Source: a virus (taxonomy: Duplodnaviria; Caudoviricetes). From it: DNA of 64,000 nt. How positions within the stretch are numbered: position 1 is the first letter of the stretch; every line of letters starts with the position of its first letter. Made by a program: the position numbers and the translations under genes. Where the stretch lies: IMG/VR virus record IMGVR_UViG_3300025597_000009, positions 1 through 64,000 of that record; one strand, written 5' to 3'. Shown one piece after another: positions 8,348-64,000 of the stretch. A model generated the notes under the pieces. That model made no database searches. It had not been told where the DNA came from and was given only the letters and a program-made list of their open reading frames with translations.

Positions 8348-8635
8348 TTAATCAAATACAGCCCGAATGTCATTGTCAAAAGGAGAATACTCAATCTGGT
8401 TAAAGGTGAAGTATTTCCCAGCAGTAAGCACCATGTTGCCATGCTTCTGATCTGTTTCATCTGGCCCATCATGCCTGACTACTCCAGTACCTTTTAAAAG
8501 CAGCTCAATAGCTCCTTCATGTTGTTGATAAGCAAAGTCCTTTGTACATTCCAGGGTATGGGAGTTCAATCCTTCTCCTTGAAGCAGGACTAGTTTTTTA
8601 GCTTTGTTCATTGGATAAATTAAGATTAAAAACAC
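8348..8635 (-). CDS. Small His-rich beta protein (likely start MNKAKK)
   Basis: LLQGEGLNSHTL, VRH, KHG and QIEYSP...RAVFD motifs of a phage family usually found next to DUF6745-like genes. Confidence 0.55.
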   Translation of the reverse strand: MFLILIYPMNKAKKLVLLQGEGLNSHTLECTKDFAYQQHEGAIELLLKGTGVVRHDGPDETDQKHGNMVLTAGKYFTFNQIEYSPFDNDIRAVFD

Positions 8636-44815: not shown

Positions 44816-44923
44816 CCCAGGGAAAAGGAATCGAACCTCTATACAAACTGATTCAGTTAATGAAAGCCTATTATTGGCTTTTATAAAACCTCAGTTTTGC
44901 TCTACCAGTTGAGCTATCCCCGG
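44816..44923 (-). ncRNA. tRNA-like RNA with expanded anticodon arm
   Basis: Acceptor CCGGGGA/TCCCTGG, D-arm TAGCTCAACTGGTAGAGC, T-arm AGAGG-TTCGATT-CCTTT. 43 nt sit where the 7-nt anticodon loop should be. Confidence 0.75.
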
Positions 44924-50964: not shown

Positions 50965-50967
50965 TGA

Positions 50968-53291
50968 TTAGGCTAGTGCTCCTAAGAAGTTCAAATCAGT
51001 ATCAGCATTGGTTTTTTCCAAGGCATTATCCAGACAGGTTTTCTGGTATGTTTTCCAGATTTCCCGAAGTTTTTTGTATTGTGGCTGAAACTCATCTCTG
51101 AAGGATTGATCATCCAGAAACTTAATAACTCTCTCAGCTGCTTTACTGTACTGGATGTACCGGATAGGGGTATTCTTATCCACTGGAGGCAAATCAGAAA
51201 GCTGTTTGTGCATAGCATTAAACTTCTCTCTTTCCTGCCGAATAGCTTCAAATTCTTCCATTTGAGACTCAATCTCATTTACATGGTGAGGATCAAAGCC
51301 AGCTACATACTTCAGCCCAGACAAGCCAGCTGTGTTGTACACAATAGCTGCCTTAACAGCTGTTCTTGGAGAAATGAAATTGTTTCTACTTACTTCAGCC
51401 ACAATTTGGGCAAACGTATGCATGGGTTTTTTGAGCACTTTATCAAACAGGAGTGCATAATCTTCCTGATTGTAAGTTTCCCATTCTACCCGGTGCTCTA
51501 AAGGAAAACGCTCCATCAAGGCTTTGATAGAATCATCCTCAGCAATTTCTTCCCGGCTTCTGTTGGTACAAACTACAATACACTTGGTTTTGATGGGTAC
51601 TTGCTGATTTCCATTTCTGAACTGTTTTGAAGTTAGAATATCCTTGAGCTGTTCTAATACGGCTGTAGGAGCATCCAAACCTTCTTCCAGTATAACATAC
51701 TCATGGCTCATGAAACTCCGTTCAATATTATATTCAATGGCACCATGGTCTTGAAATTCTTTCATTTTCAATCCCCCTAACAAGGATTCTATTGTTGAGC
51801 CCTGGCCAAGTGATTGAATAAACGGCTTTTCATCAATAGCCTTAAAGAATGCTTCACTCATTTCACTTTTCTAATTGTTATTAACCACAGGCTTTTTATC
51901 CTGTGCTCTGGAAGTTTCCCTCATTTTCATCAGTTGGTCATTTCCAACTCAGTATAGCATATATTTTCACCTCCAACTCAATGGTAAGGTGGGGAACACT
52001 CGTGGTAGTATTATAGTCTGTTTTACAGGATCAACTACTATGCGTTACACTACCAATAAATCTTTAAGTTATTGGTTAGCTCGGTATTAGCACTTCACTT
52101 TGAGCCTTCACCGATTTTGCTCCCTCATAATCCAAGATATTTCTATCCTGGACGGCAAATCCAAAATTCTTGAAAAGTTGGTATCTGTTGTACTTTCTAT
52201 CTAAATGCAAAGAACTAGTTTCATATAGCTTTTTTAAAATATCAATACTGTCTGGACAACTATAAGAAGTCTCAAAAACAAAGTGGCTTGCTGTTTCTTC
52301 AGAGTTAGCCAATAAGTAATTTCTTTCCCTATAGTTTAAGACCTTGTTAATACCTTGTAAAACATCTTTAGTGCCTAAAAATTTAACAATTGGTTTGTAT
52401 CCACTTGTGGTATGTGTAAATGTAAAGCAACCATCACCATCAAAGTAACCTCTTACAAAAGCTAGTTGATGTTTATTAGGTAGTTGATTTTCAGACGGAA
52501 ATAGTAAAGTTTCAGATTTTTTAGGAGTACATCCTAAACTAATTAGATCTAATCTCATTTGTTTACTATAAAAACAATATCGAGCAGCTTTCCCATCTTT
52601 AGTTAGATAGATTTTATTATCTGCCTTTATAAATTGCTTAAATTTTAACAAATGGTTCATATCACTAATTTTTAATCCTAGTTCAATAGCATTTGTAGTC
52701 GAATGGATTGCACCATCTGCATACAAAAACCCAAGCCAGTAAGCTTTTTCATCAGTATCAATAGTTGAAAAGAGATTATGTTGAGTTCCTCTTTCATTTT
52801 GTCTATTGATAATCTGTATTCCATTAGCTTTGAGTATTTTAGATATTCTTTCTGGTCTTGTTTTGAACATTTTACCTATTTTTTCCAAACTGTAACCTTG
52901 CTTATAATACTGTATGTATTCTTCAGCTGTACCTAATGTTTGATTTTGTTGATTTAATACACATACCCCCTTACTTCTTAGATACTTATTAATAATGTAA
53001 GGTGAATTCCCAAATTGTTTTACAAGAGAAGCTATACTTCTTTGATTTACAACATACTCATACTCAATTAATTTACCTAACTCCTCTTCCATATCTACAC
53101 ATATTTAACTATATGTAAATATACGAATTTTAGATGTGTTTACCATGTCCACCTTTCCCAAACAAGACTACATTTTCATTTGTTATGTACCCTAGGTGTA
53201 GAATTTCAGCAACTTGATCTACATAAATGAAGTTTTTGTTAAGAGCTTCTTTAACAGCTTCTAATGAAATAGAGGTTCCTTTAGATTTCAT
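50968..53291 (-). CDS. MoxR/RavA-like AAA+ ATPase, spliced (exons 53291-53142 and 51870-50968; 350 aa)
   Basis: Exon 1 MKSKGTSIS...ENVVLFGKGGHG plus exon 2 KSEMSEAFF restore Walker A GKGGHGKS. Also Walker B ILEE, CTN, ALMERF, ISPR. Confidence 0.85.
51871..53141 (-). mobile_element. Group I intron within the Walker A codons of the AAA+ gene
   Basis: Exon ends CATGGT (U); guide TTTGCCGT lies near the ORF end. Core AAAATCGGTGAA, AATACCGAG, GTGTAACGCATAG, ATATGCTATAC. Ends ...ACAATTAG|AAA. Confidence 0.85.
52076..53092 (-). CDS. Intron-encoded LAGLIDADG homing endonuclease
   Basis: YWLGFLYADG and FVRGYFDGDG; two N-terminal HTH repeats. Confidence 0.9.
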   Translation of the reverse strand: MEEELGKLIEYEYVVNQRSIASLVKQFGNSPYIINKYLRSKGVCVLNQQNQTLGTAEEYIQYYKQGYSLEKIGKMFKTRPERISKILKANGIQIINRQNERGTQHNLFSTIDTDEKAYWLGFLYADGAIHSTTNAIELGLKISDMNHLLKFKQFIKADNKIYLTKDGKAARYCFYSKQMRLDLISLGCTPKKSETLLFPSENQLPNKHQLAFVRGYFDGDGCFTFTHTTSGYKPIVKFLGTKDVLQGINKVLNYRERNYLLANSEETASHFVFETSYSCPDSIDILKKLYETSSLHLDRKYNRYQLFKNFGFAVQDRNILDYEGAKSVKAQSEVLIPS

Positions 53292-54104: not shown

Positions 54105-54734
54105 TTAGGCAGCTACTTTATACAATGTACCCTGAATCTTGAGTGTTTTGATAGTCTGAAGATTCACCTGCCGAATACAATCATGAGGTGTTGTTTTCTT
54201 CTTACTTAACTCAACCACTTTCACATACCCTAACACATTTGGGTCCTGACCAGACAAGTATTGACCATTAAGCACCCTTTCTTCCCCTTTCTTTTTCTTA
54301 AAGGTTACAGTAAAGAAACGGCCACCAGCATTGCTCATCAGCTCAAAAGCCTTTTTCTTGCCAATTTTTATGACTTTAGAAGGTTGTTGAACTGGCAGAG
54401 CAGGAGTAGCTACAGCATTAGCTGCAATAGCTTGACCAAAAGCAGCTTGTACATCAGGAGTTTGCAAATTTGTCATGGTAATGTTTGGGTCTGAATAAAT
54501 TCTGAATACACCTGTATCCTCAAAGGTAAATAGGCCTTGAGCAGTAAATCCTTGCATAAGCTTACTTACCAGTTCCTGAGTCCAATTGTATTCTGGGTGA
54601 TCTTCCCTGAGCTTTAATTTTATCTCCAGGGTGGTTACTCGATTGGTAGCTTTGAGCAGTTGTAAGGCTGCATCTAAACAAAGTTGATCTCTTTTACTCA
54701 TGATTTGAGCCAAATCACTTTTTTTATATGGCAC
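54105..54734 (-). CDS. wHTH-like N-terminal plus SH3/WYL-like C-terminal domain protein (likely start MSKRD)
   Basis: VTTLEIKLKLR...WTQELVS; GRFFTVTFKKKKGEERVLNG...IRQVNLQTI. Confidence 0.55.
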   Translation of the reverse strand: MPYKKSDLAQIMSKRDQLCLDAALQLLKATNRVTTLEIKLKLREDHPEYNWTQELVSKLMQGFTAQGLFTFEDTGVFRIYSDPNITMTNLQTPDVQAAFGQAIAANAVATPALPVQQPSKVIKIGKKKAFELMSNAGGRFFTVTFKKKKGEERVLNGQYLSGQDPNVLGYVKVVELSKKKTTPHDCIRQVNLQTIKTLKIQGTLYKVAA

Positions 54735-55906
54735 TGTGACTCATTATAGGCTATGATTTCTGAATTCAATAGCCCATTACCAGCACTAACAAAGGTGCTG
54801 TCAAATCCACGTTCCTTTAGGTTTTTATAGGTAAGAGCAAATTCATTCCCTCTAAACCATCCCTCATACTTAAAAGGATTTCCCACATGTACTTCATACA
54901 CCAGGATTACCTTGTCTGAGTCATATCCAGTATAACCCAATGATTTAGCCATTGTCTCACTGAAATAATTCCCATCACCATACGCTTTACCACTGAACTG
55001 AAAATTCCCTGTTGGTCTGATCTTTAAACCCTGTTCCAGAATTGGAAGTACTGAAGTACATCTTGTACCATGAATGAGTGTTCTGGTCTGTCTGTTCTCT
55101 TGGGAACTCATCCACTGGTTAAATGCTTCATCTTCCCTGGTTTTCTTCACAGAAAATACAGCATGTACTTTTCCAGATCGTCCATGATAGCCTGAACTGA
55201 AATTTTGATCCAGCAAATACTGAATATCAGCATAATCCTCTGTTTCTTCCATTTCAATTCCCAACATATCCAGTAAGGATTGTTGTAACGTGACCTCTGC
55301 TTGGGTTGCTGGCTTTTTGCTAAGCAGTGCAACCTGTGAGGCAATTGCATCCAGATTATCTTGTTCCTGTTCAAAGACTTTGTCTAGGTTAATATTGGGT
55401 AGTAAGTAATCTCCTACTCTGCCCATGTATCTAGGGATCACTGTGTAGATTTCAATCAGCTTTTTGTTAATTGTCAGGGTATCCAGCCGATTTAAAACAC
55501 TCAACTCATTGATTAGCTTTTGAGCAGCTTCTAACTGATGTTGAGTTACCTGAGTAGCTTTAACTGAGTAGGTTTTTCTAACCAAATTATCCCGATAACT
55601 CTGCATGAGCTTTAAAAACTCAGCTACCTTTCTACTAACAGTGTCACCAATAATTGGCTGAGTATCTGTAACAGGATCATCTACTACAGTTGTAGCTACT
55701 AATTCAGTTACATCTTTGTAACCTTTAGCAATCTTTTCCCTTTTCAGGCTATTCCACTTGCTATAAGGATAAGACTTACTAGTGGATGTGCTTTCTACCC
55801 TGCCATAATTGACAGTAAAATTAGCTCCACCAGTATAGACCATCTCGTAGAATTTATTATTGTTACCACTGGTTACCATTAGTAACTTACAATAATCTTG
55901 TTGCAT
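54698..55906 (-). CDS. WGR-domain PARP-family ADP-ribosyltransferase
   Basis: NNKFYEM...YGRV...KIAKGY (WGR), IYTVIPR helical regulatory segment, LIHGT, GKAYGDGNYFS, KSLGY, NSEIIAYN (H-Y-E triad). Confidence 0.88.
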   Translation of the reverse strand: MQQDYCKLLMVTSGNNNKFYEMVYTGGANFTVNYGRVESTSTSKSYPYSKWNSLKREKIAKGYKDVTELVATTVVDDPVTDTQPIIGDTVSRKVAEFLKLMQSYRDNLVRKTYSVKATQVTQHQLEAAQKLINELSVLNRLDTLTINKKLIEIYTVIPRYMGRVGDYLLPNINLDKVFEQEQDNLDAIASQVALLSKKPATQAEVTLQQSLLDMLGIEMEETEDYADIQYLLDQNFSSGYHGRSGKVHAVFSVKKTREDEAFNQWMSSQENRQTRTLIHGTRCTSVLPILEQGLKIRPTGNFQFSGKAYGDGNYFSETMAKSLGYTGYDSDKVILVYEVHVGNPFKYEGWFRGNEFALTYKNLKERGFDSTFVSAGNGLLNSEIIAYNESQCHIKKVIWLKS

Positions 55907-56001: not shown

Positions 56002-58230
56002 TTAATCAGCCAGGAGTTGAGTCACTCCAGCTACATCTTTAGCCCAGTCCAGATCATAGACTTCATTGGCCTCAGCTGGCTCACTGATAATAGTAAGCCC
56101 TTGAGCTAAGGCTTTTATTACTAGTAACTTCTGAATACTGAATTTGGCAGATAGCTTATTGAGCATAGCCTTTACATTGTCCATACCACTTTTACCTGCA
56201 TTACCTGTTTGGGGCATTTCTAGCCAGACAATTTGTTCAGCCTGAAGATCCAGGTAACCAAAAATCAACCCTTGACCTAATTCTGATTTAACAGAAATCA
56301 TCTGCTCTACACAGGAAGGATCAAAAGCAACTCCAGATGCAGTTACTTTCATAGGATTTGTAGAAGCCATCCAACCTACTCTCAGATTCATTTCCAGAGC
56401 ACTCTTATTATAAGCTCTGCAATGGAAGATCACACCAGAGGCCCCATTAGCTTGTAGCTTTTCTACATCCAGGTTAATAAATTCAGCTGTACCAATCTTA
56501 TTAGGAATGTGTTGAATATCCCCTGAATGAGTGGCCCCTGTAATGTTAAGGTGACCGAAGTAGCAGATGTCTGTATGATTTGGATAGACCACATCAGCAT
56601 ACAAATCCATATCTAGGTGTTGAGCTGGTAATCCTTCTCCCCAATTCATAAACAGTCTGACTTGTTTAGATTGTAGTGGGAATCGTTGTCCTTGCAAGAA
56701 ATGAGCTAAGTCCTGTACAGTTTCTGATCTGTCTCCAATGCTAAATGGAATGTACTCAAGATCAGGATGAATGTACATGGTTTTGTTTTCATTAGGAGTA
56801 GCAGCAAATCTCTGGAAGATAGCTTCATCTACTAAGGACTCAACTAGTTCCATGTATTGCTTTCTTTCTGTAGCTGACATAACTGCTACCAATGGATGTG
56901 GGTCAATAGTTTTAGTTAATCCAGCTCCTAATGGTTTTACCACTCTAGTTTGACCAGAAAAGTAAACTTTAGCAGCCTGAGTTAATGTAACAATGAGCCT
57001 CATAGGTAGCTTAGTAAGCACTTCTTTAAACGCATCCATAACTAGGGCAGCATCATACTTCAGCAACAAACTAAATAGCATTCTAGAAAATACTCCTGGA
57101 CGTTGTTTTAGTAAGTGCAATCCTAGAGTAAGACTGTGCTCTTTCATGGCCTTGTTGACCAAATGAGCCCAACCTAAACCAGTACCTTGATTTTGGAAGA
57201 TATACAGCAGATCCTTTAGTCGCTCAAAACCAGCTTGCTTGGCAAACTCATTCAATCTAGCTGCTCTGATGAACCTAACCCACATTTCTCTGTGAGGATT
57301 CATAGAGTCTAATACTGGCCTGATGCCATCAAATTCATTCATCCACTCAGCAATCTTCCTGGCTTCTGGTCTAGAATACTTTAGTTTCAGTTGCTCCTTT
57401 TTATTGGCAACCTCACTAGTATTCACAGAACTCCGGTATCTACTGTAGCCTCTTCTACTATCTCTTGCTGTTTTGTTGAGAATAGTCTTAGGCTTAACAA
57501 TCTGAAGATTACCCGTATGTTTATACCACAGATATCTTAACACATCAGAAGGCAGCTTAAAAAGCTTACTAGCTTCTTTACGTTTACCCAAGGCTACCAA
57601 TTGATCCACCAGGAACATTTTGGTTTCAATCATGCCTACTTCTACCTCTGGTACTGGGTAGATTTCTAGCAAGGTTAACACAGCTTCTTTCTGTGTACCA
57701 TCTAAAGGAGTCTTAGACTTCAACAGATTATCAAAGTAGTTCAGTAACTCCCGGTCTCCCCATAGCTTGAGTATTTTCAGCTTAGAACCCTGGCCTACTG
57801 GAATCTCCATATCAGCCTCAAAAGGAGTACCACAAAAAGGGCAACCATTGTACTTTTCCAGCTCAAACACATTGGCCGGGATAGTGTGTCCACAAACTAA
57901 AGTAGTTCCTGATCCACCAACTAACTGGTTAAACCAGGTAAGCACATGAGCAAACTCACTGTCTTTAGGTGGCACATCCCACTGTTTGATCAGAGGAGTC
58001 CAATTTAATTTGCTGCCTGTAACAGTCCTTACAAAATCCACATACAAATCCTGAAATTCTTCTGTGGTTGTTTTCCAGATAGACAGGGCTTTTGAGTCCA
58101 ATGTATAGCCTAGTTCCTTCAATTTAGCTAGGTTTACAAAGGTGGAGACCCAGTTCTGAACACTGGTAATCTCTTGGGCAGGCACATAGATAGCACCTTG
58201 CCGAATGGCAATTTTGTTGTGTTTTTCCAT
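56002..58230 (-). CDS. Large protein with prokaryotic RING-like Zn finger, helical core and C-terminal TerD-like domain
   Basis: CGH...YNGCPFCG, DVLRY, RPGVFSRML, VRLFMNW, DMDL, HSGDI, TAEFINLD. Confidence 0.75.
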   Translation of the reverse strand: MEKHNKIAIRQGAIYVPAQEITSVQNWVSTFVNLAKLKELGYTLDSKALSIWKTTTEEFQDLYVDFVRTVTGSKLNWTPLIKQWDVPPKDSEFAHVLTWFNQLVGGSGTTLVCGHTIPANVFELEKYNGCPFCGTPFEADMEIPVGQGSKLKILKLWGDRELLNYFDNLLKSKTPLDGTQKEAVLTLLEIYPVPEVEVGMIETKMFLVDQLVALGKRKEASKLFKLPSDVLRYLWYKHTGNLQIVKPKTILNKTARDSRRGYSRYRSSVNTSEVANKKEQLKLKYSRPEARKIAEWMNEFDGIRPVLDSMNPHREMWVRFIRAARLNEFAKQAGFERLKDLLYIFQNQGTGLGWAHLVNKAMKEHSLTLGLHLLKQRPGVFSRMLFSLLLKYDAALVMDAFKEVLTKLPMRLIVTLTQAAKVYFSGQTRVVKPLGAGLTKTIDPHPLVAVMSATERKQYMELVESLVDEAIFQRFAATPNENKTMYIHPDLEYIPFSIGDRSETVQDLAHFLQGQRFPLQSKQVRLFMNWGEGLPAQHLDMDLYADVVYPNHTDICYFGHLNITGATHSGDIQHIPNKIGTAEFINLDVEKLQANGASGVIFHCRAYNKSALEMNLRVGWMASTNPMKVTASGVAFDPSCVEQMISVKSELGQGLIFGYLDLQAEQIVWLEMPQTGNAGKSGMDNVKAMLNKLSAKFSIQKLLVIKALAQGLTIISEPAEANEVYDLDWAKDVAGVTQLLAD

Positions 58231-58237
58231 AAAAGAG

Positions 58238-58295
58238 AAGGTAATTACAGAGCTATAGGAGCTTTTTTAGTGAGAAGTAAGCTCTGTTTGACCTT
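58238..58295 (-). promoter_or_regulatory. Y-RNA-like structured 5' leader of the RING-TerD gene
   Basis: AAGGT-C-AA-ACAGAGCT-TACTTCT...AGCTCTGT-AA-TT-ACCTT; ends 7 nt before the ATG. Confidence 0.75.
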
Positions 58296-58923
58296 ATTTA
58301 TTTTTGATGATTTTAATGGCTTTAATTACCAACTGGATGGTTTCTTTTCTGGCTTCCAAATAACCAGTTCTTATGAATGGTGTAATGAGTGTGTGTTTGG
58401 GGCTACAATACTGTTCTAACTCAACACTTTCAGGGGCATGTACATGGCCCACTAAAGTACCAACAGTAAAAGAACTACAGATATAGACACTCAAGCTAAA
58501 TTCATGCAAAGCCCACATTACAATCTGATCAAATGTAGGAGCTCTAAACATAACGTTAGAGTCTATACGTGGATTGAATGGAGGTAAGAGGTCTTCATTA
58601 CCTAAGTAAATTTCTTTATCCTTCCCAGTATAATAACCCAAAGTAGGCCAGTCAAAACCTAATTTTTTAAACTCCAGTGATTCTTCATAAGAAAGAAAGG
58701 TCTCTCCCAAAGTTGGAATTGGCTCAAAGGTTTCATTAGCTTCTAAATAAGCCATGATTGTTTCATCACTTGGGCTTTCAGGCAGTTCTTTATGATAAAT
58801 CAAGCTATCAATTAGGTTTGCACCATGTTTGACTTTGCTTTCCTTTACTTCTGCAATAATCTGCTCTTGACTTCCATAGTATTTCCTTACCATGTCCAGC
58901 ATTTTGAATTGTCTGATCTTCAT
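58294..58923 (-). CDS. Hypothetical protein
   Basis: FLSYEESLEFKKLGFD...APTFDQIVMW, a Bacteroidota phage motif. Confidence 0.65.
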   Translation of the reverse strand: MKIRQFKMLDMVRKYYGSQEQIIAEVKESKVKHGANLIDSLIYHKELPESPSDETIMAYLEANETFEPIPTLGETFLSYEESLEFKKLGFDWPTLGYYTGKDKEIYLGNEDLLPPFNPRIDSNVMFRAPTFDQIVMWALHEFSLSVYICSSFTVGTLVGHVHAPESVELEQYCSPKHTLITPFIRTGYLEARKETIQLVIKAIKIIKNK

Positions 58924-58929
58924 ATGGAT

Positions 58930-59292
58930 TTAAGCAAATTCTGTTTGACCTTTGTTTAAGAATTTTGAAACTATTTCTGTGTATAAATCAGGCTTTTTTT
59001 GTCCAGTAAATCTACCCCATTGTGTTTGACAATGTGGACATTCCCAAACCAATACTCCATCATAAAAACCTTCATATTCAATTCCAATTAAATCAGAAAA
59101 ATAAGTAGGGTTTTCTGGAGTATAGCCATACATTCCAGCTACTTCAATAATTTGCTCATCAGTCTTATCTTTATAGTGAGCATGATTAGGATTAGTTGGG
59201 TCTTCTTTAACTTCTCTAAAGAATTGTAAAACATCTTTTCTATTAAAGCTGCCTCCACATTCAGGACAATTATCTAGGTTTAAAATGTTCAT
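58930..59292 (-). CDS. Zn-ribbon protein
   Basis: CPEC...IGIE..YDGVLVWECPHC..WGRFTG. Confidence 0.65.
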   Translation of the reverse strand: MNILNLDNCPECGGSFNRKDVLQFFREVKEDPTNPNHAHYKDKTDEQIIEVAGMYGYTPENPTYFSDLIGIEYEGFYDGVLVWECPHCQTQWGRFTGQKKPDLYTEIVSKFLNKGQTEFA

Positions 59293-59651
59293 TATGCAGG
59301 TACATCAGGTGAGAAAATACGGTTTTCAGGCTTACTCCAATCAATCCACTCCATGTCACAATATGGACGATTAGAACCATTAAGTTGTACAGGAATGTAC
59401 ATTCCCCAACTGGGTGTAGGTTGTAAGCAAAGTGCATCATTGGCCAGCATGCCTACAATCAAATCATGACAGGTGTCATCTTCATACTTCTGTTTACCAG
59501 CTTCTGTAAAACAAACCCAGATGCCTTCATTAGGCCCAACAGGTACCAGTAACTGAACTTTACCCAGGTGTCGCTGGTCATAACTAAAAGGGCTGAATGT
59601 TAAACTCCGGCCATCTTTTAGGGTTAGTGTAGCTGTTTCTTGAATGGTCAT
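59292..59651 (-). CDS. Hypothetical protein
   Basis: EGIWV...LANDAL...RP. Confidence 0.6.
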   Translation of the reverse strand: MTIQETATLTLKDGRSLTFSPFSYDQRHLGKVQLLVPVGPNEGIWVCFTEAGKQKYEDDTCHDLIVGMLANDALCLQPTPSWGMYIPVQLNGSNRPYCDMEWIDWSKPENRIFSPDVPA

Positions 59652-59836
59652 TTTAGTTCTTGTTTATGTAAAAACTCAAGAATTTCCTGGTCAGTTGGAT
59701 TCGGTTTTAATAGGCCACTTTTAATGCACAAAAACATAAGTGGGCTATTATGGTATTTGTCTTGTTTGAACTGGGCAACTAGATCTCCTTCTAAATACTC
59801 TCTGATTGAGAATAAGATTTTGAATCTTCTAGTCAT
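59648..59836 (-). CDS. Small protein similar to the N-terminus of 58294..58923
   Basis: RRFKIL...NPTDQEILEFL versus RQFKML...SPSDETIMAYL. Confidence 0.5.
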   Translation of the reverse strand: MTRRFKILFSIREYLEGDLVAQFKQDKYHNSPLMFLCIKSGLLKPNPTDQEILEFLHKQELK

Positions 59837-59853
59837 ACAATAATCAATTGGTT

Positions 59854-60281
59854 ATTAGCACCCTCTTCTCACTATCCTTTTCTGTCAAGCAGTAAGTGTA
59901 GGGTCACGTAGTTATTATATCTCGTTGTAGTAAGGACTGGGAATCCTCTGAGGTGATCGTTCCTCCATAATTAACTACTTGCTGAGAACTCATTAATGTG
60001 GAGTTGGAGTGATTCAGGAGTGTATAGCATTACCTTGTCACCAACTTTGCAAATTTCCCTTTACAGGTACTTTCCTGACATTCTATGCTCTTTCTCAAGG
60101 AGCCCACATTTCTAGGATTTCTCTTTCTGATAGCTACGGGTTTAAATTCTCTAATGTCTTAATATGAAGAGACCTAAGCATTATTAAGTAGACTGCTACT
60201 ACTCAGAAACTCATTAACTAGAGCTAGTATCTTTATTGAAATTAGATTAGTATAATTTCAACCAGGATCAATGTTTAGCCT
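59854..60281 (-). ncRNA. Large structured ncRNA, unit B (428 nt), family unrecognised
   Basis: Shares five ordered sequence blocks and covarying stems with unit A; no ORF of 60 aa or more. Confidence 0.72.
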
Positions 60282-60571
60282 ATTAGCACCCCTTAGTCAC
60301 TGTTACCTTCCATAGAGGAGGTGGTTTACCAGTCGGGTCAAGCTGAGAACTCATTTGTGTTGTATAACGAATGTCTAAACGATACTCATGTTATATTTAC
60401 ATCATTCCTTTCTCAAGGGAACAACACATCCATCATTACTGAAGCTAATCCTCCTTCTCTTCTATTGGCGAAGATTTGTTGGGTTGTCTTTAGCTAGTTT
60501 GTCAATTCAAACTTGGTATCTTTTATCAAGGCTAGATTAGTATAGCCTGACCAGGAATCAATGTTTAGCCT
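60282..60571 (-). ncRNA. Large structured ncRNA, unit A (290 nt), family unrecognised
   Basis: AGGCTAAACATTGAT..., TACTAATC loop, CTTGAGAAA loop, AATGAGTTCTCAGC, GGGTGCTAAT end. Confidence 0.72.
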
Positions 60572-60577
60572 GTTATT

Positions 60578-60714
60578 TTCCATGCTATCTGGACTCGAAC
60601 CAGAATCAATCAGAGGACTTACACCTCAACTTCAGTCCTGTTTAGGTGCTGCTTGGATTTACCCAAGCCCCGTATCTCTACAGGGGGATCTGCCATTCTC
60701 CCATGGACATGGAA
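60578..60714 (-). ncRNA. tRNA-like RNA (~137 nt) with a multi-hairpin insert
   Basis: Terminal stem TTCCATGT/GCATGGAA, D-like GGGAGAATGGCAGATCCC, T-arm TCTGG-TTCGAGT-CCAGA, three internal hairpins. Confidence 0.65.
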
Positions 60715-60720
60715 AAACTC

Positions 60721-61413
60721 TTAATTGACTTTAAATGAAATGTAGTAATGATTATTGTTAACAATTTCAACTCCTGGCACATTATAAATAGACGTTAAGT
60801 TATCTACACCAGCTTGAAATACATCATGCAATTCCTTGTAAGGTTCCGCATCATAATCTACCATTGTTGTGTAATATTTACTAAACTTTTCATGTCCCCA
60901 GGACTCATTCAAGAGAAATCTGCATAATTGATTCTCAGGCTTTATAAAAGCCTGCTCTAAGAAGTAAGTACAAGTTGGGCCAAGAGTGTAAGGCAATGAA
61001 TACTCAGGCTTAAACCGAAGATCAAAATTAATAACTGCCTTAGCTGTCACAATAGCTGGTTTTACACAATCCACTAAAGTAACCTGAGCACAATCAGAAA
61101 AATACTGTACATTATTTACTTTACTAGTTGCAGGATAAGCCTGTTCTAATTCTGCTAAAGCAGCCTCAAAAGCCTCAACAGAAGTACTATAATAAGTTTC
61201 TCCTGTTAAACAGAAAAAGGCTTTTACACTGCTTAAAGGCCCAACAAAGCCTTGTAAAGGCTGTTTGTATAACTGCTTATCTTTGTTAACAAATGAAGCA
61301 GCTAACCGATAGCCACCACCCATAAGCTTTTCAGTTGGTAACCAGATGACTGGTCTAAACTTGTTTTGTTCAGGGCTAAAATTTACTGTTATATTTCCAA
61401 GTAAACTATCCAT
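60721..61413 (-). CDS. Hypothetical protein
   Basis: 230 aa ORF. Confidence 0.6.
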   Translation of the reverse strand: MDSLLGNITVNFSPEQNKFRPVIWLPTEKLMGGGYRLAASFVNKDKQLYKQPLQGFVGPLSSVKAFFCLTGETYYSTSVEAFEAALAELEQAYPATSKVNNVQYFSDCAQVTLVDCVKPAIVTAKAVINFDLRFKPEYSLPYTLGPTCTYFLEQAFIKPENQLCRFLLNESWGHEKFSKYYTTMVDYDAEPYKELHDVFQAGVDNLTSIYNVPGVEIVNNNHYYISFKVN

Positions 61414-61416
61414 GGC

Positions 61417-61869
61417 TTATGCTTCAAAAATAGATAAATACAGTTTTTCAATCTTCTTGTAAATCCACTCATACACATCCCATAACAGCTCACCAAACAT
61501 CCAGTTGAAGGCTGAAAAGGGCTAGAAAAACCACCATCTAAATACATGATCTTTTAGTATAAAATACTTCTTTTCATCTGGCTTTTTCTTTAATTCTTGG
61601 CCTTTGAAGTATGTCCTAACTAAAGAGAAAATGAAGCCTATACTTAAATAATACAGGATATTTTCCACTGTCAAATAACTGAAAATCGGAAAATTACTCC
61701 AGTAATAACAGCAAATCACAAAAGCAATCAGAATACCAAATGCAGTAGCTAAACTGTTGTGCTTATCAGCTACTGCCAATAGCAATACTATAGCTACCAC
61801 TAAGCCAAAAAAGGCAAAAGCACTACCAAACAGGCTAAAAGCCATCCAGGTTTGAAACCAAGTCTCCAT
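61417..61869 (-). pseudogene. Membrane protein interrupted by an in-frame TAG at 61522-61524
   Basis: Frame continues RWWFF*PFSAFNWMFGELLWDVYEWIYKKIEKLYLSIFEA to TAA at 61417, 3 nt before the next ATG. Confidence 0.6.
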
Positions 61870-62282
61870 TAATTGAAAAGGTTTATTAAAAGTTGCAGAA
61901 AATCAATGTGTAAATGATACCTGTTCAGTACAATTAGTAATAGAAGTACTACAGATATATATCCATCAATACTAACAGCAAATCCTTCTTTTTTAATTTT
62001 AAAGATATTCCAAAACAAAATTGACCAGCAGAAAAACACAACAAATAAAAACCATTGACTAGTAAAGAAGCCAATAAACATCCAACACCAATATAAAAAT
62101 ATTAGTCCGGCTATATTTTTATTGGCATTTTGAGCCTTTGTTTTAAGTCGTTCGAGCATAGCTACATGTTTTGCTGGCTCTATTACTGCATGAAACTCAA
62201 ATACTAGAGCTAGACTAGTCCAACCATAAAATAAAAAACTAAGCATGCATGTAAAGGTTAATGACTCCCCAGATAAATTCAC
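61869..62282 (-). CDS. Multi-TM membrane protein
   Basis: Four hydrophobic segments. Confidence 0.6.
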   Translation of the reverse strand: MNLSGESLTFTCMLSFLFYGWTSLALVFEFHAVIEPAKHVAMLERLKTKAQNANKNIAGLIFLYWCWMFIGFFTSQWFLFVVFFCWSILFWNIFKIKKEGFAVSIDGYISVVLLLLIVLNRYHLHIDFLQLLINLFN

Positions 62283-62727
62283 TAAAGGCTGTATTCAAAT
62301 GCCAATTAAAAAATATAGCATTAACAGAAATAATACCTTGAAGTAGTATAATACCAAGTGTATTAAATCCTTGCCAATCATTGGTTAACCACCTGCTATT
62401 AAATTGTCTGGCAGTAATAATATTCGAGATGATGAGTACACCTATATTGCTGTGAAACACAACAAGCAACCCTACTAAATTGAAGTAACGATAGATAGTA
62501 TCTATACTAGGCAATATCCAAGCTAACCCAAATTCAGTATCATCTAGCAGATTAACAATTCTTTCTGGTAGTAATTTATGTCTTATCAAATACGATAAAT
62601 CATAATAAACCATCACACTGTAAGAAGGGTTAATCAGTAAATAGTAGTACCAAATGACAAATAGTAGGCCTACACTACCATAAATAATCTGAAGAGCCCT
62701 CCAGAATAGCATAAAGGATTCAAACAT
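62239..62727 (-). CDS. Multi-TM membrane protein
   Basis: Several hydrophobic segments. Confidence 0.55.
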   Translation of the reverse strand: MFESFMLFWRALQIIYGSVGLLFVIWYYYLLINPSYSVMVYYDLSYLIRHKLLPERIVNLLDDTEFGLAWILPSIDTIYRYFNLVGLLVVFHSNIGVLIISNIITARQFNSRWLTNDWQGFNTLGIILLQGIISVNAIFFNWHLNTAFSEFIWGVINLYMHA

Positions 62728-62766
62728 AATAATGCATGGTTTTTAAGTGAACAATAGAAAAAAAAT

Positions 62767-62892
62767 GGCCAGGTAATCGTGATTGTATTTCAGTCTTTTG
62801 CTCTACCAACTGAGCTATACCAGCGTTAGCTGATACCAGGAATTGAACCTGGGACCCAAAGTTTTTAGAAGTAACATTCACTTGACCTGACC
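62767..62892 (-). ncRNA. Y-RNA-like (YrlA-like) RNA with a circularly permuted tRNA module
   Basis: Bulged-C terminal helix GGTCAGGT-C-AA/TT-ACCTGGCC enclosing T-arm CCAGG-TTCAATT-CCTGG, a closed acceptor-like hairpin, then D-arm GCTCAGTTGGTAGAGC. Confidence 0.8.
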
Positions 62893-62899
62893 AATAAGG

Positions 62900-62971
62900 A
62901 AGTCTGGTAATCAATAATGTAATTACCTGTTTCAAAAAGTTTTTAGAAGTAACATTATTTTGACCAGACTC
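62900..62971 (-). ncRNA. Y-RNA-like RNA, minimal
   Basis: GAGTCTGGT-C-AA-AATAATGT-TACTTCTAAAAAC...ACATTATT-GA-TT-ACCAGACTT. Confidence 0.75.
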
Positions 62972-62973
62972 AG

Positions 62974-63044
62974 TTACCCAGGGAAGATTCGAACTCCCAC
63001 CAAGAGGACCAAAACCTCTTGTGCTACCATTACACCACCGGGTA
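62974..63044 (-). tRNA. tRNA-Gln (UUG)
   Basis: Acceptor TACCCGG/CTGGGTA, anticodon arm AGAGG-TTTTGGT-CCTCT, T-loop TTCGAAT. Confidence 0.92.
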
Positions 63045-63127
63045 GGGTTAATAAAGCAATCATTCAACTATTTTCGTAGTCATCATAGAGTTGTAGAAGT
63101 AAGTTGAATTTGGCCTTATTAATAAGA

Positions 63128-63200
63128 AAATCAGGTAATCCATACACTAATTTCAGTTTACCAATCTGTTTTTAGAAGTAAGTGTGTGTTGACCTGATCT
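63128..63200 (-). ncRNA. Y-RNA-like RNA, minimal
   Basis: AGATCAGGT-C-AA-CACACACT-TACTTCTAAAAAC...AGTGTATG-GA-TT-ACCTGATTT. Confidence 0.75.
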
Positions 63201-63202
63201 TG

Positions 63203-63275
63203 TGAGACCTACAGGATTTGAACCTGTAACCTTCTCATTAAAAGTGAGAAGCTCTACCAATTGAGCTAAGGCCTC
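63203..63275 (-). tRNA. tRNA-Lys (UUU)
   Basis: Acceptor GAGGCCT/AGGTCTC, anticodon arm TCTCA-CTTTTAA-TGAGA. Confidence 0.92.
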
Positions 63276-63361
63276 AGGAAACTCATCTAATTCAAAGAAA
63301 AAGATGAGTAAGCATCTTGTATGAGAAAAAAAACTAATCGGGTTTACCAGTTAAATGGTAG

Positions 63362-63435
63362 TAGGAATACCTGGACTTGAACCAGGGGCCTCAACATTAT
63401 CAGTGTTGTACTCTAACCAACTGAGCTATATTCCT
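63362..63435 (-). tRNA. tRNA-Ile (GAU)
   Basis: Acceptor AGGAATA/TATTCCT, anticodon arm CAACA-CTGATAA-TGTTG. Confidence 0.92.
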
Positions 63436-63504
63436 AGATTTTGTGCATAAATATTCCCCAATACCTATGCACATGTCCTTTTAGTTAACGTCCATTATAA
63501 TGGG

Positions 63505-63578
63505 TAGTGGGTGAGAGGCTCGAACTCCCAACTTCCTGCTTAGAAGGCAGGATTTCTATCCAATTGAATTAACCCACC
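63505..63578 (-). tRNA. tRNA-Arg (UCU)
   Basis: Acceptor GGTGGGT/ACCCACT, anticodon arm CCTGC-CTTCTAA-GCAGG. Confidence 0.9.
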
Positions 63579-63638
63579 AGAAAAAAAACTCTTATAATTC
63601 AAGGTGTATATAAGAGTCTTGTTCACCGTAACTTGAGT

Positions 63639-63723
63639 TTAATCAGGCAATCTACCTGCTAAGTCAAATCCCTATTTTGATGCCTATGCAGGCTAGAAGT
63701 AAGCTAGGTATTGGCCTGATTAA
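63639..63723 (-). ncRNA. Y-RNA-like RNA
   Basis: TTAATCAGGC-C-AA-TACCTAGCT-TACTTCT...AGCAGGTA-GA-TT-GCCTGATTAA; has a compensatory C-G where the other copies have U-A. Confidence 0.72.
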
Positions 63724-63798
63724 TTCATTGAATAACAACTAATTGGGAGTAATTAGCTGTTTAACTATACTATCGTATCACACGCTCACCATGCAATA

Positions 63799-63806
63799 CA
63801 AAGATA
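63799..63806 (-). promoter_or_regulatory. Bacteroidota-type -7 promoter element upstream of the tRNA/ncRNA cluster
   Basis: TATCTTTG on the minus strand, ~75 nt before the first Y-like RNA. Confidence 0.5.
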
Positions 63807-63854
63807 ACCTAGTCTGGTTAGGGTTGATGCTCCTAATAACAAGAGTTGGTTAGT

Positions 63855-64000
63855 CTATTTTTCACCAAACCAGCTAACAATAACTGTACCTACTAATAGT
63901 ATAAACATCCAGGCTGCCATACCTTCTCTAAATTCAGTTGGCCATTGAGCTAATGTAAATGAACCCACATGAACGCATCCAATCAATAGGAGGCAAAGCA
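63855..64000 (-). CDS. 3' end of a small membrane protein (truncated by window edge)
   Basis: ...LCLLLIGCVHVGSFTLAQWPTEFREGMAAWMFILLVGTVIVSWFGEK*. Confidence 0.4.
   Translation of the reverse strand, partial: LCLLLIGCVHVGSFTLAQWPTEFREGMAAWMFILLVGTVIVSWFGEK

What the first reader, a model, noticed from the sequence alone, without database searches (positions are those of the whole stretch)
58238..63723. Five covarying copies of a Y-RNA-like bulged-C helix interleaved with tRNAs, with no Ro60/TROVE gene in view
Seen: elements at 63639-63723, 63128-63200, 62900-62971, 62767-62892 and 58238-58295 all fit stem1-GG(U/C)-bulged C-AA-[~8 bp stem2]-UACUUCU-variable-[stem2']-(G/A)A bulge-UU-(A/G)CC-stem1'. 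Stem2 differs in each copy but stays paired (GTGAATGT/ACAATCAC, AATAATGT/ACATTATT, CACACACT/AGTGTATG, TACCTAGCT/AGCAGGTA, ACAGAGCT/AGCTCTGT). Established: Y RNAs bind Ro60/Rsr through a terminal helix with a bulged C, and bacterial ones are often tRNA-like and sit next to RNA-repair genes. Inference: this is a variant Y-RNA class (GGUCAA...UACUUC) with one constant protein-binding module and interchangeable payload loops. A canonical TROVE-vWA Ro60 is not evident in this window.
Basis: partly seen in the sequence, partly recalled or inferred. Interest (0 to 1): 0.85.

Follow-up and report, generated by a model that had tools for sequence, protein, structure and literature searches.

The report
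Y-RNA-like RNAs with Ro60-like partner
A phage carries six copies of a small structured RNA that, in hundreds of Bacteroidota genomes and in unrelated phages, always sits beside one uncharacterised 740-residue protein whose predicted fold resembles the RNA-binding ring protein Ro60, pointing to an undescribed counterpart of the Ro60/Y-RNA RNA-repair particle.

Summary
All lie on the minus strand: five in a tRNA cluster and one directly ahead of a 742-aa gene (56002-58230).

A covariance model built only from bacterial sequences finds exactly these six in the window (38-57 bits). The same module forms arrays of 2-11 copies immediately upstream of homologues of that gene in 78 of 80 Bacteroidota loci. 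Stem 2 covaries strongly.

In 150 sampled Bacteroidota genomes the RNA occurs only in the four that hold a close homologue, always adjacent to it. It occurs in none of the eleven genomes with a canonical TROVE/Ro60 gene.

- **Protein:** it has no detectable sequence similarity to TROVE. Its AlphaFold model (pLDDT 93) has a TerD C-terminal domain, and the only solved chains that align over the whole helical domain are three Ro60 structures (Z 7-9).
- **Context:** RtcB RNA ligase follows the gene in 30 of 80 loci. A WYL regulator precedes it in 45.
- **Other phages:** distant homologues in Rhodococcus and Rhodobacter phages, which have no TROVE gene, are flanked by variant modules with the same ACUUCU motif and YrlA-like tRNA domains.

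Best reading: a Y-RNA-like RNA family paired with a Ro60-like protein. Binding and expression are untested.

The parts
63640..63722 (-). Module E1: GGCCAA, 9-bp stem 2, UACUUCU, 41-nt payload with small hairpins, GA-UUGCC. It is followed by a hairpin plus U-run before tRNA-Arg.
   Evidence: R2 38.4 bits, E 9e-8. R1 45.2 bits. Fold z -2.66.
63501..63579 (-). tRNA-Arg(UCU), first tRNA of the cluster
   Evidence: ARAGORN. Rfam tRNA 54.6 bits.
63361..63435 (-). tRNA-Ile(GAU)
63202..63275 (-). tRNA-Lys(UUU). E2 starts 2-4 nt after its 3' end.
63128..63200 (-). Module E2: GGUCAA, stem 2 CACACACU/AGUGUAUG, UACUUCUAAAAAC, and a payload ending in ACUGAAAU.
   Evidence: R2 55.7 bits, E 2e-12. Fold z -2.91.
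63049..63121 (-). It ends 5 nt before tRNA-Gln.
   Evidence: R2 48.3 bits, E 2e-10. Motif scan. Fold z -2.76.
62973..63044 (-). tRNA-Gln(UUG)
62900..62971 (-). Module E4: GGUCAA, stem 2 AAUAAUGU/ACAUUAUU, UACUUCUAAAAAC. The payload ends in AGGUAA, which can pair with UUACU.
   Evidence: R2 56.7 bits, E 1e-12. Fold z -3.61.
62766..62893 (-). Module E5 with a circularly permuted tRNA-like payload. The order is T-arm, acceptor stem closed by a UAAC loop, D-arm, then a 4-bp anticodon-stem equivalent. Stem 1 is followed by U8, which looks like a terminator.
   Evidence: Rfam YrlA 32.5 bits over model positions 23-88 of 114. R2 45.5 bits. R1 36.1 bits although E5 was not in the training set. Fold z -4.15.
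58234..58299 (-). Module E6. It fills the gap between the stop codon of the 209-aa ORF (58294) and the ATG (58230) of the 742-aa gene.
   Evidence: R2 54.9 bits, E 4e-12. ORF map. The position matches the last module of the bacterial arrays, whose 5' motif starts a median 79 nt before the ATG.
56002..58230 (-). 742-aa protein. It has an N-terminal helical part with a single CxH...CPxC zinc knuckle (a weak Prok-RING_4 match), a helical solenoid at about 150-480 with a Ro60-like arrangement, and a TerD-fold domain at about 520-688. It is the proposed protein partner of the modules.
   Evidence: Pfam. AlphaFold model with pLDDT 92.8 and pTM 0.91. TerD matches at Z 13.2 and 11.7, and Ro60 matches at Z 9.2, 8.8 and 8.6. 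Domain alone: Ro60 at Z 9.2, 7.4 and 6.8 over 255-270 residues. Strict genomic linkage to the RNA.

Best explanation
The six elements are small non-coding RNAs of an undescribed family. The family is built like bacterial Y RNAs.

**RNA anatomy.** The constant part is a terminal helix (stem 1), an invariant GG(U/C)-C-AA / (N)A-UU-(A/G)CC junction, an 8-bp variable stem 2, and an invariant single-stranded UACUUC. This constant part carries a variable payload. The payload can be a plain loop, a small hairpin, an anticodon-stem-loop or T-arm look-alike, or a whole tRNA-like body. In phage E5 the tRNA body is circularly permuted, as in YrlA. In bacteria the module instead replaces the anticodon loop of a tRNA-shaped RNA.

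**Proposed partner.** Their cognate protein is most likely the 742-aa gene directly downstream of E6, not a canonical Ro60. This protein combines a zinc knuckle, a helical solenoid predicted to be arranged like the TROVE ring of Ro60, and a TerD domain where Ro60 has its vWA domain.

**Proposed mechanism (inferred).** The protein binds the constant junction and the UACUUC motif. The payload then acts as a tether or mimic that brings tRNA-handling or RNA-repair enzymes (RtcB in many bacteria) or damaged tRNAs to the ring. This would parallel the way Y RNAs gate and tether Ro60.

The phage carries the whole cassette and has seeded extra RNA copies into its tRNA operon. There, tRNA processing by RNase P and RNase Z and a terminal U-run would release them as discrete RNAs. 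The plausible purpose is to protect or repair tRNAs during infection. The leader copy E6 may also allow the protein to regulate its own translation.

**Shown:** the RNA structure and covariation, family membership, exclusive linkage to the gene, the lack of linkage to TROVE, and the recurrent RtcB and WYL neighbours. **Inferred:** binding, expression as discrete RNAs, and function.
For: **RNA.** All six copies share one fold. The bacteria-only model R2 finds exactly these six. Covariation is strong: stem-2 pairs show 18-30 double changes in 58 sequences, and the score is 0.569 against 0.168 in shuffles.

**Linkage.** Of 356 strict 5' motifs in 80 bacterial loci (1.02 Mb), 344 lie within 1 kb upstream of the homologous gene on its strand, and only 2 lie on the other strand. 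78 of 80 loci have 2-11 copies. The two loci without copies have no upstream DNA on the contig. R1 gives 279 hits, all on the gene strand.

In 150 evenly sampled Bacteroidota genomes, searched whole, R1 hits at E<=1e-6 occur only in the 4 genomes with a close homologue. Every hit lies directly upstream of the gene. None of the 11 TROVE-positive genomes in that sample has the RNA. Three of five other array-bearing genomes lack TROVE.

**Protein.** The model is confident. After two TerD chains, the next three of 48,161 PDB representatives are all Ro60: phiLo at Z 9.2 with 291 residues aligned, D. radiodurans Rsr at Z 8.8 with 281, and Xenopus Ro at Z 8.6 with 323. With the helical domain folded alone, Ro60 chains rank 1, 2 and 4 and are, apart from one low-ranking poor fit (rank 46, 211 residues at rmsd 24.7), the only hits spanning the whole domain at 255-270 residues. 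Every other hit covers 120 residues or fewer.

**Context.** RtcB lies next to the gene in 30 of 80 loci across Flavobacterium, Chitinophaga, Saprospiraceae and an unclassified MAG. A WYL-WCX regulator lies nearby, mostly divergently upstream, in 45 of 80 loci across several orders. This mirrors the Salmonella rsr-yrlBA-rtcBA operon (PMC4201824, PMC7790460).

**Other phages.** In Rhodococcus phage Weasels2 the homologue sits in the tRNA cluster, 3 kb from RtcB. It is followed by four variant modules (UACUUC conserved). One carries a permuted tRNA-like domain that hits YrlA. Rhodobacter phage RcXuper has upstream modules with AUACUUCU and a YrlA hit of 40.7 bits. Both complete genomes lack TROVE.
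Against: - No experiment or RNA-seq was available.
- Sequence methods see no relation to Ro60. Pfam TROVE gives no hit and hhalign against a TROVE alignment gives probability 0.2%.
- Foldseek did not list Ro60.
- The structural Z scores of 7-9, with rmsd of 4.7-7.1 A, fall in the range the tool warns can arise from generic helical repeats.
- The C-terminal domain is TerD, not vWA.
- The 5' motif lacks the CGAA of known Y RNAs.
- Arrays placed directly upstream of the gene are also what a purely cis-acting leader would look like.
- RtcB is absent from the 100-kb phage record and from 50 of 80 bacterial loci.
- The phage record is only about 43% complete, so a canonical Ro60 could lie in the unseen part.
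Confidence: 0.6

Rival explanations
1. The modules are purely cis-acting leader or processing elements. These would be autoregulatory operators, attenuators or RNase sites of the mRNA for the 742-aa gene, together with punctuation marks of the tRNA operon. They would not be trans-acting RNP RNAs.
For: In bacteria the arrays lie within 1 kb upstream of the gene on the same strand. The last module's 5' motif starts a median 79 nt before the ATG. E6 fills the leader of the phage gene. No expression data exist.
Against: Five of the six phage copies lie 4.5-5.5 kb from the gene, inside a tRNA cluster. In Weasels2 the modules lie downstream of the gene. Arrays of 2-11 copies with diverse tRNA-like payloads, including complete tRNA-shaped RNAs scoring 46-50 bits on the tRNA model, are not expected of an operator. 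A leader role for the last copy is compatible with the main explanation.
Confidence: 0.15
2. They are ordinary YrlA-type Y RNAs serving a canonical TROVE-vWA Ro60. That Ro60 would be encoded in the unsequenced 57% of the phage genome or supplied by the host.
For: The E5 payload aligns to the YrlA tRNA-like core. The record is 43% complete. Some Bacteroidota have TROVE genes. Phages with Ro60 and nearby Yrl RNAs are known (PMC4201824, PMC12135203).
Against: None of the 11 TROVE-positive genomes in the sample has the RNA, and none of the 4 RNA-positive genomes there has TROVE. Three of five further array-bearing genomes lack TROVE. Two complete phage genomes with the variant modules also lack it. 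All YrlA scores fall far below the gathering score, and the Ro-binding arm of the model does not align. The GNCGAA motif is absent.
Confidence: 0.07
3. The RNAs are tRNA decoys or damage sensors rather than tethers. Their anticodon-loop, T-arm and whole-tRNA look-alike payloads would be cut by tRNA-targeting toxins or defence nucleases. The cut RNAs would then signal, for example through the WYL regulator, or be resealed by RtcB. In this view the protein is a sensor or effector, with zinc-knuckle and TerD calcium-binding parts, rather than a Ro-like chaperone.
For: Payloads repeatedly imitate tRNA parts, such as CUGUUAA and CUUUUAA loops on 4-5-bp stems and GGUUCGAAUCC hairpins. RtcB and WYL are recurrent neighbours. 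Damaged tRNA fragments are the known signal for the Salmonella rtc operon (PMC7790460). The TerD calcium-site residues D540, D542, HSGD 568-571 and E583 are conserved.
Against: No nuclease or toxin is consistently linked. The invariant junction and UACUUC motif argue for a dedicated binding protein, which fits either model. This is a variant of the main explanation rather than its opposite.
Confidence: 0.15
4. The elements are selfish, tRNA-derived repeats (MITE- or REP-like) that accumulate near tRNA genes and have no function of their own.
For: They are multicopy and lie next to tRNAs in the phage. Some contain tRNA fragments.
Against: They are found nowhere else in whole genomes except beside one gene family. 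They keep a single orientation, 356 against 2. Compensatory changes preserve pairing across families and phyla. The invariant single-stranded motif is conserved from Bacteroidota to an actinophage.
Confidence: 0.03

Closest known systems
Ro60 (Rsr) with YrlA/YrlB Y RNAs, and the rsr-yrlBA-rtcBA RNA-repair operon of Salmonella (PMC4201824, PMC7790460)
   Same: - Several small RNAs are encoded beside the protein gene on the same strand.
- A terminal bulged helix carries an invariant purine-rich 5' motif.
- One RNA carries a T-arm, closed acceptor stem and D-arm tRNA mimic in the same permuted order, and the others lack it.
- RtcB is a neighbour.
- The protein has a predicted helical domain that aligns end to end only with Ro60 structures.
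   Different: - The protein is not recognisable as TROVE by Pfam or by profile-profile comparison.
- It carries a zinc knuckle, and a TerD beta-sandwich in place of the vWA/MIDAS domain.
- The RNA motif is GGYCAA...UACUUC...AUUACC rather than GNCGAA.
- Arrays reach 11 copies.
- In bacteria the module is often inserted into a normally ordered tRNA-shaped RNA.
- The regulator is of the WYL type, not RtcR.
Phage Ro60 with Yrl RNAs (mycobacteriophages, PMC4201824; Thermus phage phiLo Ro60 with Yrl1 and Yrl2, PMC12135203, PDB 9L5Y)
   Same: The cassette is phage-borne: protein plus two or more small RNAs nearby. phiLo Ro60 is the best structural match to the helical domain (Z 9.2).
   Different: Those phages encode bona fide TROVE-vWA proteins and RNAs with the CGAA motif. 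Here, and in Weasels2 and RcXuper, no TROVE gene exists.
Stable 'species 1' and 'species 2' RNAs in the phage T4 tRNA cluster (recalled from memory, not checked here)
   Same: Small non-tRNA stable RNAs are interleaved with phage tRNA genes and released by tRNA-processing enzymes. Their function is unknown.
   Different: No sequence or structural relation was tested. No linked protein is known for the T4 RNAs.
SPFH/Band-7 modules with a cognate tRNA-like RNA in RtcB repair systems (Burroughs and Aravind 2016, NAR; recalled from the abstract; the paper is not in the held library)
   Same: A scaffold protein plus a tRNA-like non-coding RNA is linked to RtcB.
   Different: The protein fold is different (SPFH, against helical ring plus TerD). 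I could not check whether that paper also mentions the family described here.

Membership tests
Rfam YrlA (RF02553) | Score at or above the gathering threshold (69 bits) over the full model | tested here: not met
   Only E5 matches, at 32.5 bits over model positions 23-88 of 114, which is the tRNA-like core only. The other five give no hit at E<=10.
Rfam YrlA (RF02553) | tRNA-like domain with T-arm, closed acceptor-like stem and D-arm | tested here: met
   This is met for E5 only. Its GGUUCAAUUCC T-loop hairpin, UAUCAGC-UAAC-GCUGGUA stem and GCUC-AGUUGGUA-GAGC D-arm all align to the model. E1-E4 and E6 lack the domain, as YrlB does.
Rfam YrlA (RF02553) | 5' motif GNCGAAN0-1G (PMC4201824) | tested here: not met
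   All six copies have GG(U/C)CAA with no CGAA.
Rfam YrlA (RF02553) | Encoded within about 4 kb of a TROVE Ro60 gene, on the same strand | tested here: not met
   The 100,586-bp record has no TROVE match, although the record is only about 43% complete. In sampled Bacteroidota the RNA and TROVE never share a genome.
Rfam Y_RNA (RF00019) | Match to the covariance model | tested here: not met
   No hit at E<=10 in 58000-64000 with permissive filters.
Y RNA in the functional sense | Bound by Ro60 in vivo | not testable with these tools
   This needs RIP or EMSA.
Ro60 / TROVE protein family (the 742-aa protein) | Pfam TROVE (PF05731) match | tested here: not met
   No match in six-frame search of the record or in hmmscan of the protein and 14 homologues at E<=1.
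Ro60 / TROVE protein family (the 742-aa protein) | Profile-profile sequence similarity to TROVE proteins | tested here: not met
   hhalign of A2 (85 sequences) against A4 (18 TROVE proteins) gives probability 0.2% and E 0.28.
Ro60 / TROVE protein family (the 742-aa protein) | HEAT-like helical solenoid arranged as in the Ro60 ring | tested here: inconclusive
   VIA-align on the full model gives Ro60 chains at Z 9.2, 8.8 and 8.6 with 281-323 residues aligned, ranking 3-5 of 48,161. On the domain alone they give Z 9.2, 7.4 and 6.8 with 255-270 aligned and are, apart from one poor fit at rmsd 24.7, the only full-length matches. However, rmsd is 4.7-7.1 A, Z is within the range the tool calls ambiguous for helical repeats, and Foldseek did not report Ro60.
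Ro60 / TROVE protein family (the 742-aa protein) | C-terminal vWA domain with a MIDAS site | tested here: not met
   Residues 520-688 adopt the TerD fold: 2qz7 at Z 13.2 and 2kxt at Z 11.7, with Foldseek E about 1e-3.
Prok-RING_4 (PF14447) | Score above the Pfam gathering cut-off (27 bits) | tested here: inconclusive
   The phage protein scores 18.7 bits. All 15 family members match weakly, with best E 2.7e-5. Only four zinc ligands are conserved (C113, H115, C130, C133).
   R2, built from 53 bacterial modules, scores the six phage copies at 38.4-56.7 bits. The next hit is at 13 bits.
   E6 abuts the gene. E1-E5 lie 4.5-5.5 kb upstream on the same strand. In bacteria 97% of copies lie within 1 kb upstream of the gene.

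The most novel reading that the evidence does not exclude
This would be a second branch of the Ro60 world that sequence methods cannot recognise: a zinc-knuckle, TROVE-like ring and TerD protein with its own class of Y RNAs. It is widespread in Bacteroidota and present in phages of three bacterial phyla.

Its RNA arrays would work as a set of interchangeable adaptors. Each would display a different tRNA part (anticodon arm, T-arm or whole tRNA) on one constant protein-binding handle, to recruit RtcB and tRNA enzymes, or to intercept tRNA-targeting nucleases. Phages would deploy the system from within their tRNA operons as a counter-defence.
Probability: 0.4. Interest if true: 0.9.

Novelty: new variant of a known kind. 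Interest (0 to 1): 0.82.

Why it matters
Ro60/Y-RNA particles are the best-known RNA quality-control particles shared by animals and bacteria. What Y RNAs do in bacteria, and why they mimic tRNA, is still open.

This system offers the same logic with different parts. A ring-like protein comes with several small RNAs sharing a constant handle and tRNA-like payloads, and with an RtcB neighbour.

It is common. At least 552 species-level genomes matched in one scan, and there are 1,905 protein clusters at 50% identity. It occurs in genetically tractable Flavobacterium johnsoniae and in cultured phages (Weasels2, RcXuper).

It supplies a large natural series of payload variants for testing how such RNAs select clients. 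It would also explain a family of 'hypothetical' phage proteins (phrog_33734) that sit in tRNA clusters, and it adds a family of structured RNAs, including tRNA chimeras, that is absent from Rfam 15.

Tried and rejected
- **IMG/VR motif scan.** An exact-motif scan gave one match. It was a chance hit inside a coding region with no pairing partner.
- **IMG/VR protein scans.** Two scans of IMG/VR viral contigs for the protein, one with a single sequence and one with an alignment, found no relatives. Relatives came instead from GTDB genomes and GenBank phages.
- **Rfam.** At E<=10 only the partial YrlA hit appeared. There was no Y_RNA hit, and no other family covers the modules in the phage or in four bacterial loci.
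- **Sequence searches for the protein.** PDB sequence search and Pfam gave nothing beyond the weak RING match. Foldseek gave only TerD.
- **Profile comparison.** hhalign to TROVE was negative.
- **The 437-aa vWA protein (49651-50964).** I considered it as a hidden Ro60. It has no TROVE signal and sits beside a MoxR ATPase, the usual MoxR-vWA pair.
- **UACUUCUAA as a tRNA-Arg(UCU) anticodon-loop mimic.** Only three phage copies carry the full CUUCUAA. Across the family only (U/A)ACUUC is fixed.
- **K-turn reading of the junction.** The 5' strand lacks the required G-A step.
- **Promoter and terminator scan.** The sigma-70 scan was uninformative, giving counts no different from shuffles.
- **Literature.** Burroughs and Aravind 2016 (NAR) is not in the held library. 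Prior description there cannot be excluded. Seven literature searches found no paper describing this RNA or protein family.

Full report
**Setting**

The window is the first 64 kb of a 100,586-bp IMG/VR viral record that CheckV rates about 43% complete. Nearly all genes are on the minus strand. Its replication proteins are below 30% identical to those of any GenBank phage, and the closest are crAss-like phages.

**The observation**

Read on the minus strand, the five listed elements are present as described. A sixth lies at 63049-63121.

A strict search for GG[CT]CAA-N7-10-TACTTC finds six sites in the whole record. All are on this strand, between 58,234 and 63,722.

The layout of the cluster is: E1, a hairpin with a U-run, tRNA-Arg, tRNA-Ile, tRNA-Lys, E2, E3, tRNA-Gln, E4, E5, then U8. 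E2 and E4 begin 2-4 nt after a tRNA 3' end. E3 ends 5 nt before a tRNA 5' end. Ordinary tRNA processing would therefore release them; this is an inference.

E6 stands alone. It exactly fills the gap between the stop codon of a 209-aa ORF and the ATG of a 742-aa ORF.

All six fold into stem 1, an internal loop, an 8-9-bp stem 2 and a payload loop, with z-scores of -2.7 to -4.2.

**E5 resembles YrlA**

The E5 payload is a circularly permuted tRNA body: T-arm, then an acceptor stem closed by a tetraloop, then the D-arm. It aligns to positions 23-88 of Rfam YrlA at 32.5 bits. This is well below the gathering score of 69, and the Ro-binding arm of the model is not matched.

Chen et al. define YrlA by three features: a 5' GNCGAAN0-1G motif, this tRNA-like domain, and a position within 4 kb of a TROVE gene on the same strand (PMC4201824). 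Here only the second holds, and only for E5.

**The link to a protein**

No TROVE domain is encoded in the record.

The 742-aa ORF downstream of E6 has only a weak Prok-RING_4 hit. It does, however, have more than 2,000 homologues of about 746 aa and about 45% identity, nearly all in Bacteroidota chromosomes.

A scan of GTDB species genomes matched 599 stretches, of which 552 encode a relative. Eighty loci were fetched.

In these loci the strict 5' motif occurs 356 times on the gene strand and twice on the other strand. Of these, 344 lie within 1 kb upstream of the gene. 78 of 80 loci have 2-11 copies, with a median of 5. The two loci without copies begin at the gene, so no upstream DNA is available. 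The motif nearest the gene starts a median 79 nt before the ATG, which matches the position of E6.

A parser found a downstream pairing partner for 231 motifs. For 70 it found an upstream partner, meaning the module is a hairpin closed at stem 1.

**Covariation and models**

I aligned 58 modules (5 from the phage, 53 bacterial) and tested a 19-pair structure.
- The structure is 87.5% paired, against 65.4% in shuffles.
- The covariation score is 0.569, against 0.168 in shuffles (0 of 500 reach it).
- Slid controls stay at or below 0.19.
- Seven stem-2 pairs each show 18-30 double substitutions.

The bacterial rows had been selected for at least 7 of 8 stem-2 pairs. This inflates the percentage paired but does not affect the diversity of the pairs.

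The pairs in AA/UU and the C between them never vary. The 'bulged C' is therefore a reading of the sequence, not a tested pairing.

Model R1 finds six hits in the phage record. This includes E5, which was not in the training set, at 36 bits. The next hit has E 0.08. R1 finds 279 hits in the bacterial loci, all on the gene strand.

Model R2, built from the bacterial modules alone, scores the six phage elements at 38-57 bits, with the next hit in the window at 13 bits. The phage elements therefore belong to the bacterial family.

**Whole-genome co-occurrence**

I searched an even sample of about 150 Bacteroidota genomes in full.
- The protein profile matches 5 genomes: 4 closely and 1 at E 4e-21.
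- R1 at E<=1e-6 matches exactly the 4 close ones. Every match lies directly upstream of the gene.
- TROVE matches 11 genomes, none of which is among those 4.

Of five other array-bearing genomes, three lack TROVE. In the two that have it, the gene lies on other contigs.

**The protein**

With an 85-sequence alignment, AlphaFold gives a model with pLDDT 92.8 and pTM 0.91.

Residues 520-688 adopt the TerD fold: 2qz7 at Z 13.2 and 2kxt at Z 11.7, with Foldseek E about 1e-3. The acidic and HSGD residues are invariant or nearly invariant across the family.

In the Foldseek-independent search of 48,161 PDB representatives, ranks 3-5 are the three Ro60 entries:

| Chain | Protein | Z | Residues aligned |
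|---|---|---|---|
| 9l5y | phiLo Ro60 | 9.2 | 291 |
| 2nvo | D. radiodurans Rsr | 8.8 | 281 |
| 1yvp | Xenopus Ro with RNA | 8.6 | 323 |

The next hit has Z 7.1 over 107 residues.

I folded the helical domain (residues 150-500) alone, giving pLDDT 93.8. Ro60 chains again take ranks 1, 2 and 4, at Z 9.2, 7.4 and 6.8. They are, apart from one low-ranking poor fit (rank 46, 211 residues at rmsd 24.7), the only matches that run colinearly over the whole domain, at 255-270 residues. Every other hit covers 120 residues or fewer.

Several points cut the other way. The rmsd values are high (4.7-7.1 A). The Z values are in the range the tool flags as possibly generic for helical repeats. Foldseek did not list Ro60. 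hhalign against a TROVE alignment is negative, at probability 0.2%.

I therefore call the fold Ro60-like and leave homology open.

**Genomic context**

Only the gene itself is universal among the 80 loci.

RtcB (Pfam E 8e-83) follows it in 26 Flavobacterium loci and 2 Chitinophaga loci. More divergent RtcBs flank it in a Saprospiraceae MAG and in an unclassified MAG.

A WYL-WCX regulator lies nearby, mostly divergently upstream, in 45 loci. These span Flavobacterium, Bacteroides, Bacteroidales, Saprospiraceae, Cytophagales, Taibaiella and Chitinophaga.

This arrangement of regulator, small RNAs, ring protein and RtcB parallels the Salmonella rsr-yrlBA-rtcBA operon (PMC4201824, PMC7790460).

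The phage record has no RtcB. It does have an Rnl-type RNA ligase at 3740-5131.

**Payloads**

In bacteria the payloads include plain loops, GNRA-capped hairpins, anticodon-arm look-alikes (for example CUGUUAA or CUUUUAA loops on short stems) and T-arm look-alikes.

They also include complete tRNA-shaped RNAs in which the module takes the place of the anticodon loop. The Rfam tRNA model scores these at 46-50 bits. It pairs GGUAG with the conserved UUACU as the anticodon stem. ARAGORN does not call them.

In several simple modules, including phage E2 and E4, a GGUA(A/G) near the 3' end of the payload can pair with the UUAC(U) that overlaps the conserved motif. In others it cannot. The motif is therefore conserved for something other than this helix alone.

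**Other phages**

tblastn finds distant homologues, at 23-26% identity, in three phage records.

In Rhodococcus phage Weasels2 the gene lies in the tRNA cluster, 3 kb upstream of RtcB. The 390-nt gap after it holds four modules. UACUUC is conserved, but the junction is of the GG(A/C)U(U/C)AAG ... CGCUCACC type. The third module carries a permuted tRNA-like body that hits YrlA at 26 bits.

In Rhodobacter phage RcXuper the 1.9 kb upstream of the gene holds a tmRNA, a YrlA-like domain at 40.7 bits, and modules reading CAUACUUCU ... CGCUCGCC.

A fecal phage contig has UUCCUUCU repeats upstream of its homologue.

None of the three records encodes TROVE, and two of them are complete genomes.

The protein-RNA pairing is therefore conserved across phages of Actinomycetota, Pseudomonadota and Bacteroidota, with co-varying junction sequences. 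This is what a specific protein-RNA interface would predict.

**Conclusion**

The Y-RNA analogy is apt, but the elements are not members of the curated Y RNA families, and their partner is almost certainly not canonical Ro60.

The best-supported model is a distinct Ro60-like particle. Binding, expression and function remain inferences.

Notes from other first-stage readers on this genome had proposed the same protein partner and an autoregulatory role for E6. I read them after reaching my own conclusion. The tests above address the first idea and not the second.

Noticed in passing
window 59840-60720 (minus strand): An ORF-free stretch of about 880 nt with internal repeats (for example the ...AAUGUUUAGCCU... 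blocks). At 60563-60700 there is a multi-hairpin RNA with a T-arm-like GGUUCGAGUCC hairpin and a 6-bp terminal stem. Neither Rfam nor ARAGORN matches it, and the fold z-score is only -1.25.
   Followed up: partly
window 49651-51861 (minus strand): A MoxR-type AAA+ ATPase (bpMoxR, E 4e-10) lies next to a 437-aa protein with a C-terminal vWA domain (VWA_2, E 1e-7). This is a MoxR-vWA pair a few kb downstream of the RNA and RING/TerD cassette on the same strand.
   Followed up: partly
window 54698-55906 (minus strand): A 402-aa protein with WGR and PARP catalytic domains (PARP E 1e-17; phrog_23333) lies immediately downstream of the 742-aa gene.
   Followed up: no
window 8626-10206 (minus strand): A 526-aa truncated leucyl-tRNA-synthetase-like protein, with class I synthetase and LeuRS editing-domain hits.
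   Followed up: no
window 35495-35727 and 44816-44923 (minus strand): A group I intron (Rfam 58 bits) lies at the 3' end of the 303-aa ORF (35624-36535) just downstream of the DNA polymerase ORF (36535-37971). Separately, a 108-nt tRNA-model hit (43.6 bits) that ARAGORN does not call may be an intron-containing or otherwise interrupted tRNA.
   Followed up: no
window 3740-5131 (minus strand): An Rnl-type RNA ligase (phrog_968, E 2e-41; Pfam RNA_ligase). It may be the phage's substitute for the RtcB that accompanies the cassette in bacteria.
   Followed up: no
L004 5618-5734; L012 5449-5572 and 5590-5707; L069 5757-5877: Bacterial arrays contain tRNA-shaped RNAs of about 117-124 nt. The Y-like module replaces the anticodon loop, and a long extra arm carries an anticodon-loop look-alike. 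They score 46-50 bits on the tRNA model but ARAGORN does not see them.
   Followed up: partly
L097 808-1108; L099 2011-2427: In two other phages a tmRNA gene lies directly upstream of the homologous protein gene, among the tRNAs and modules.
   Followed up: no
L067 8240-8310: One Saprospiraceae locus has an extra module directly downstream of the gene, as in phage Weasels2. It also has RtcB upstream of the array instead of downstream.
   Followed up: no
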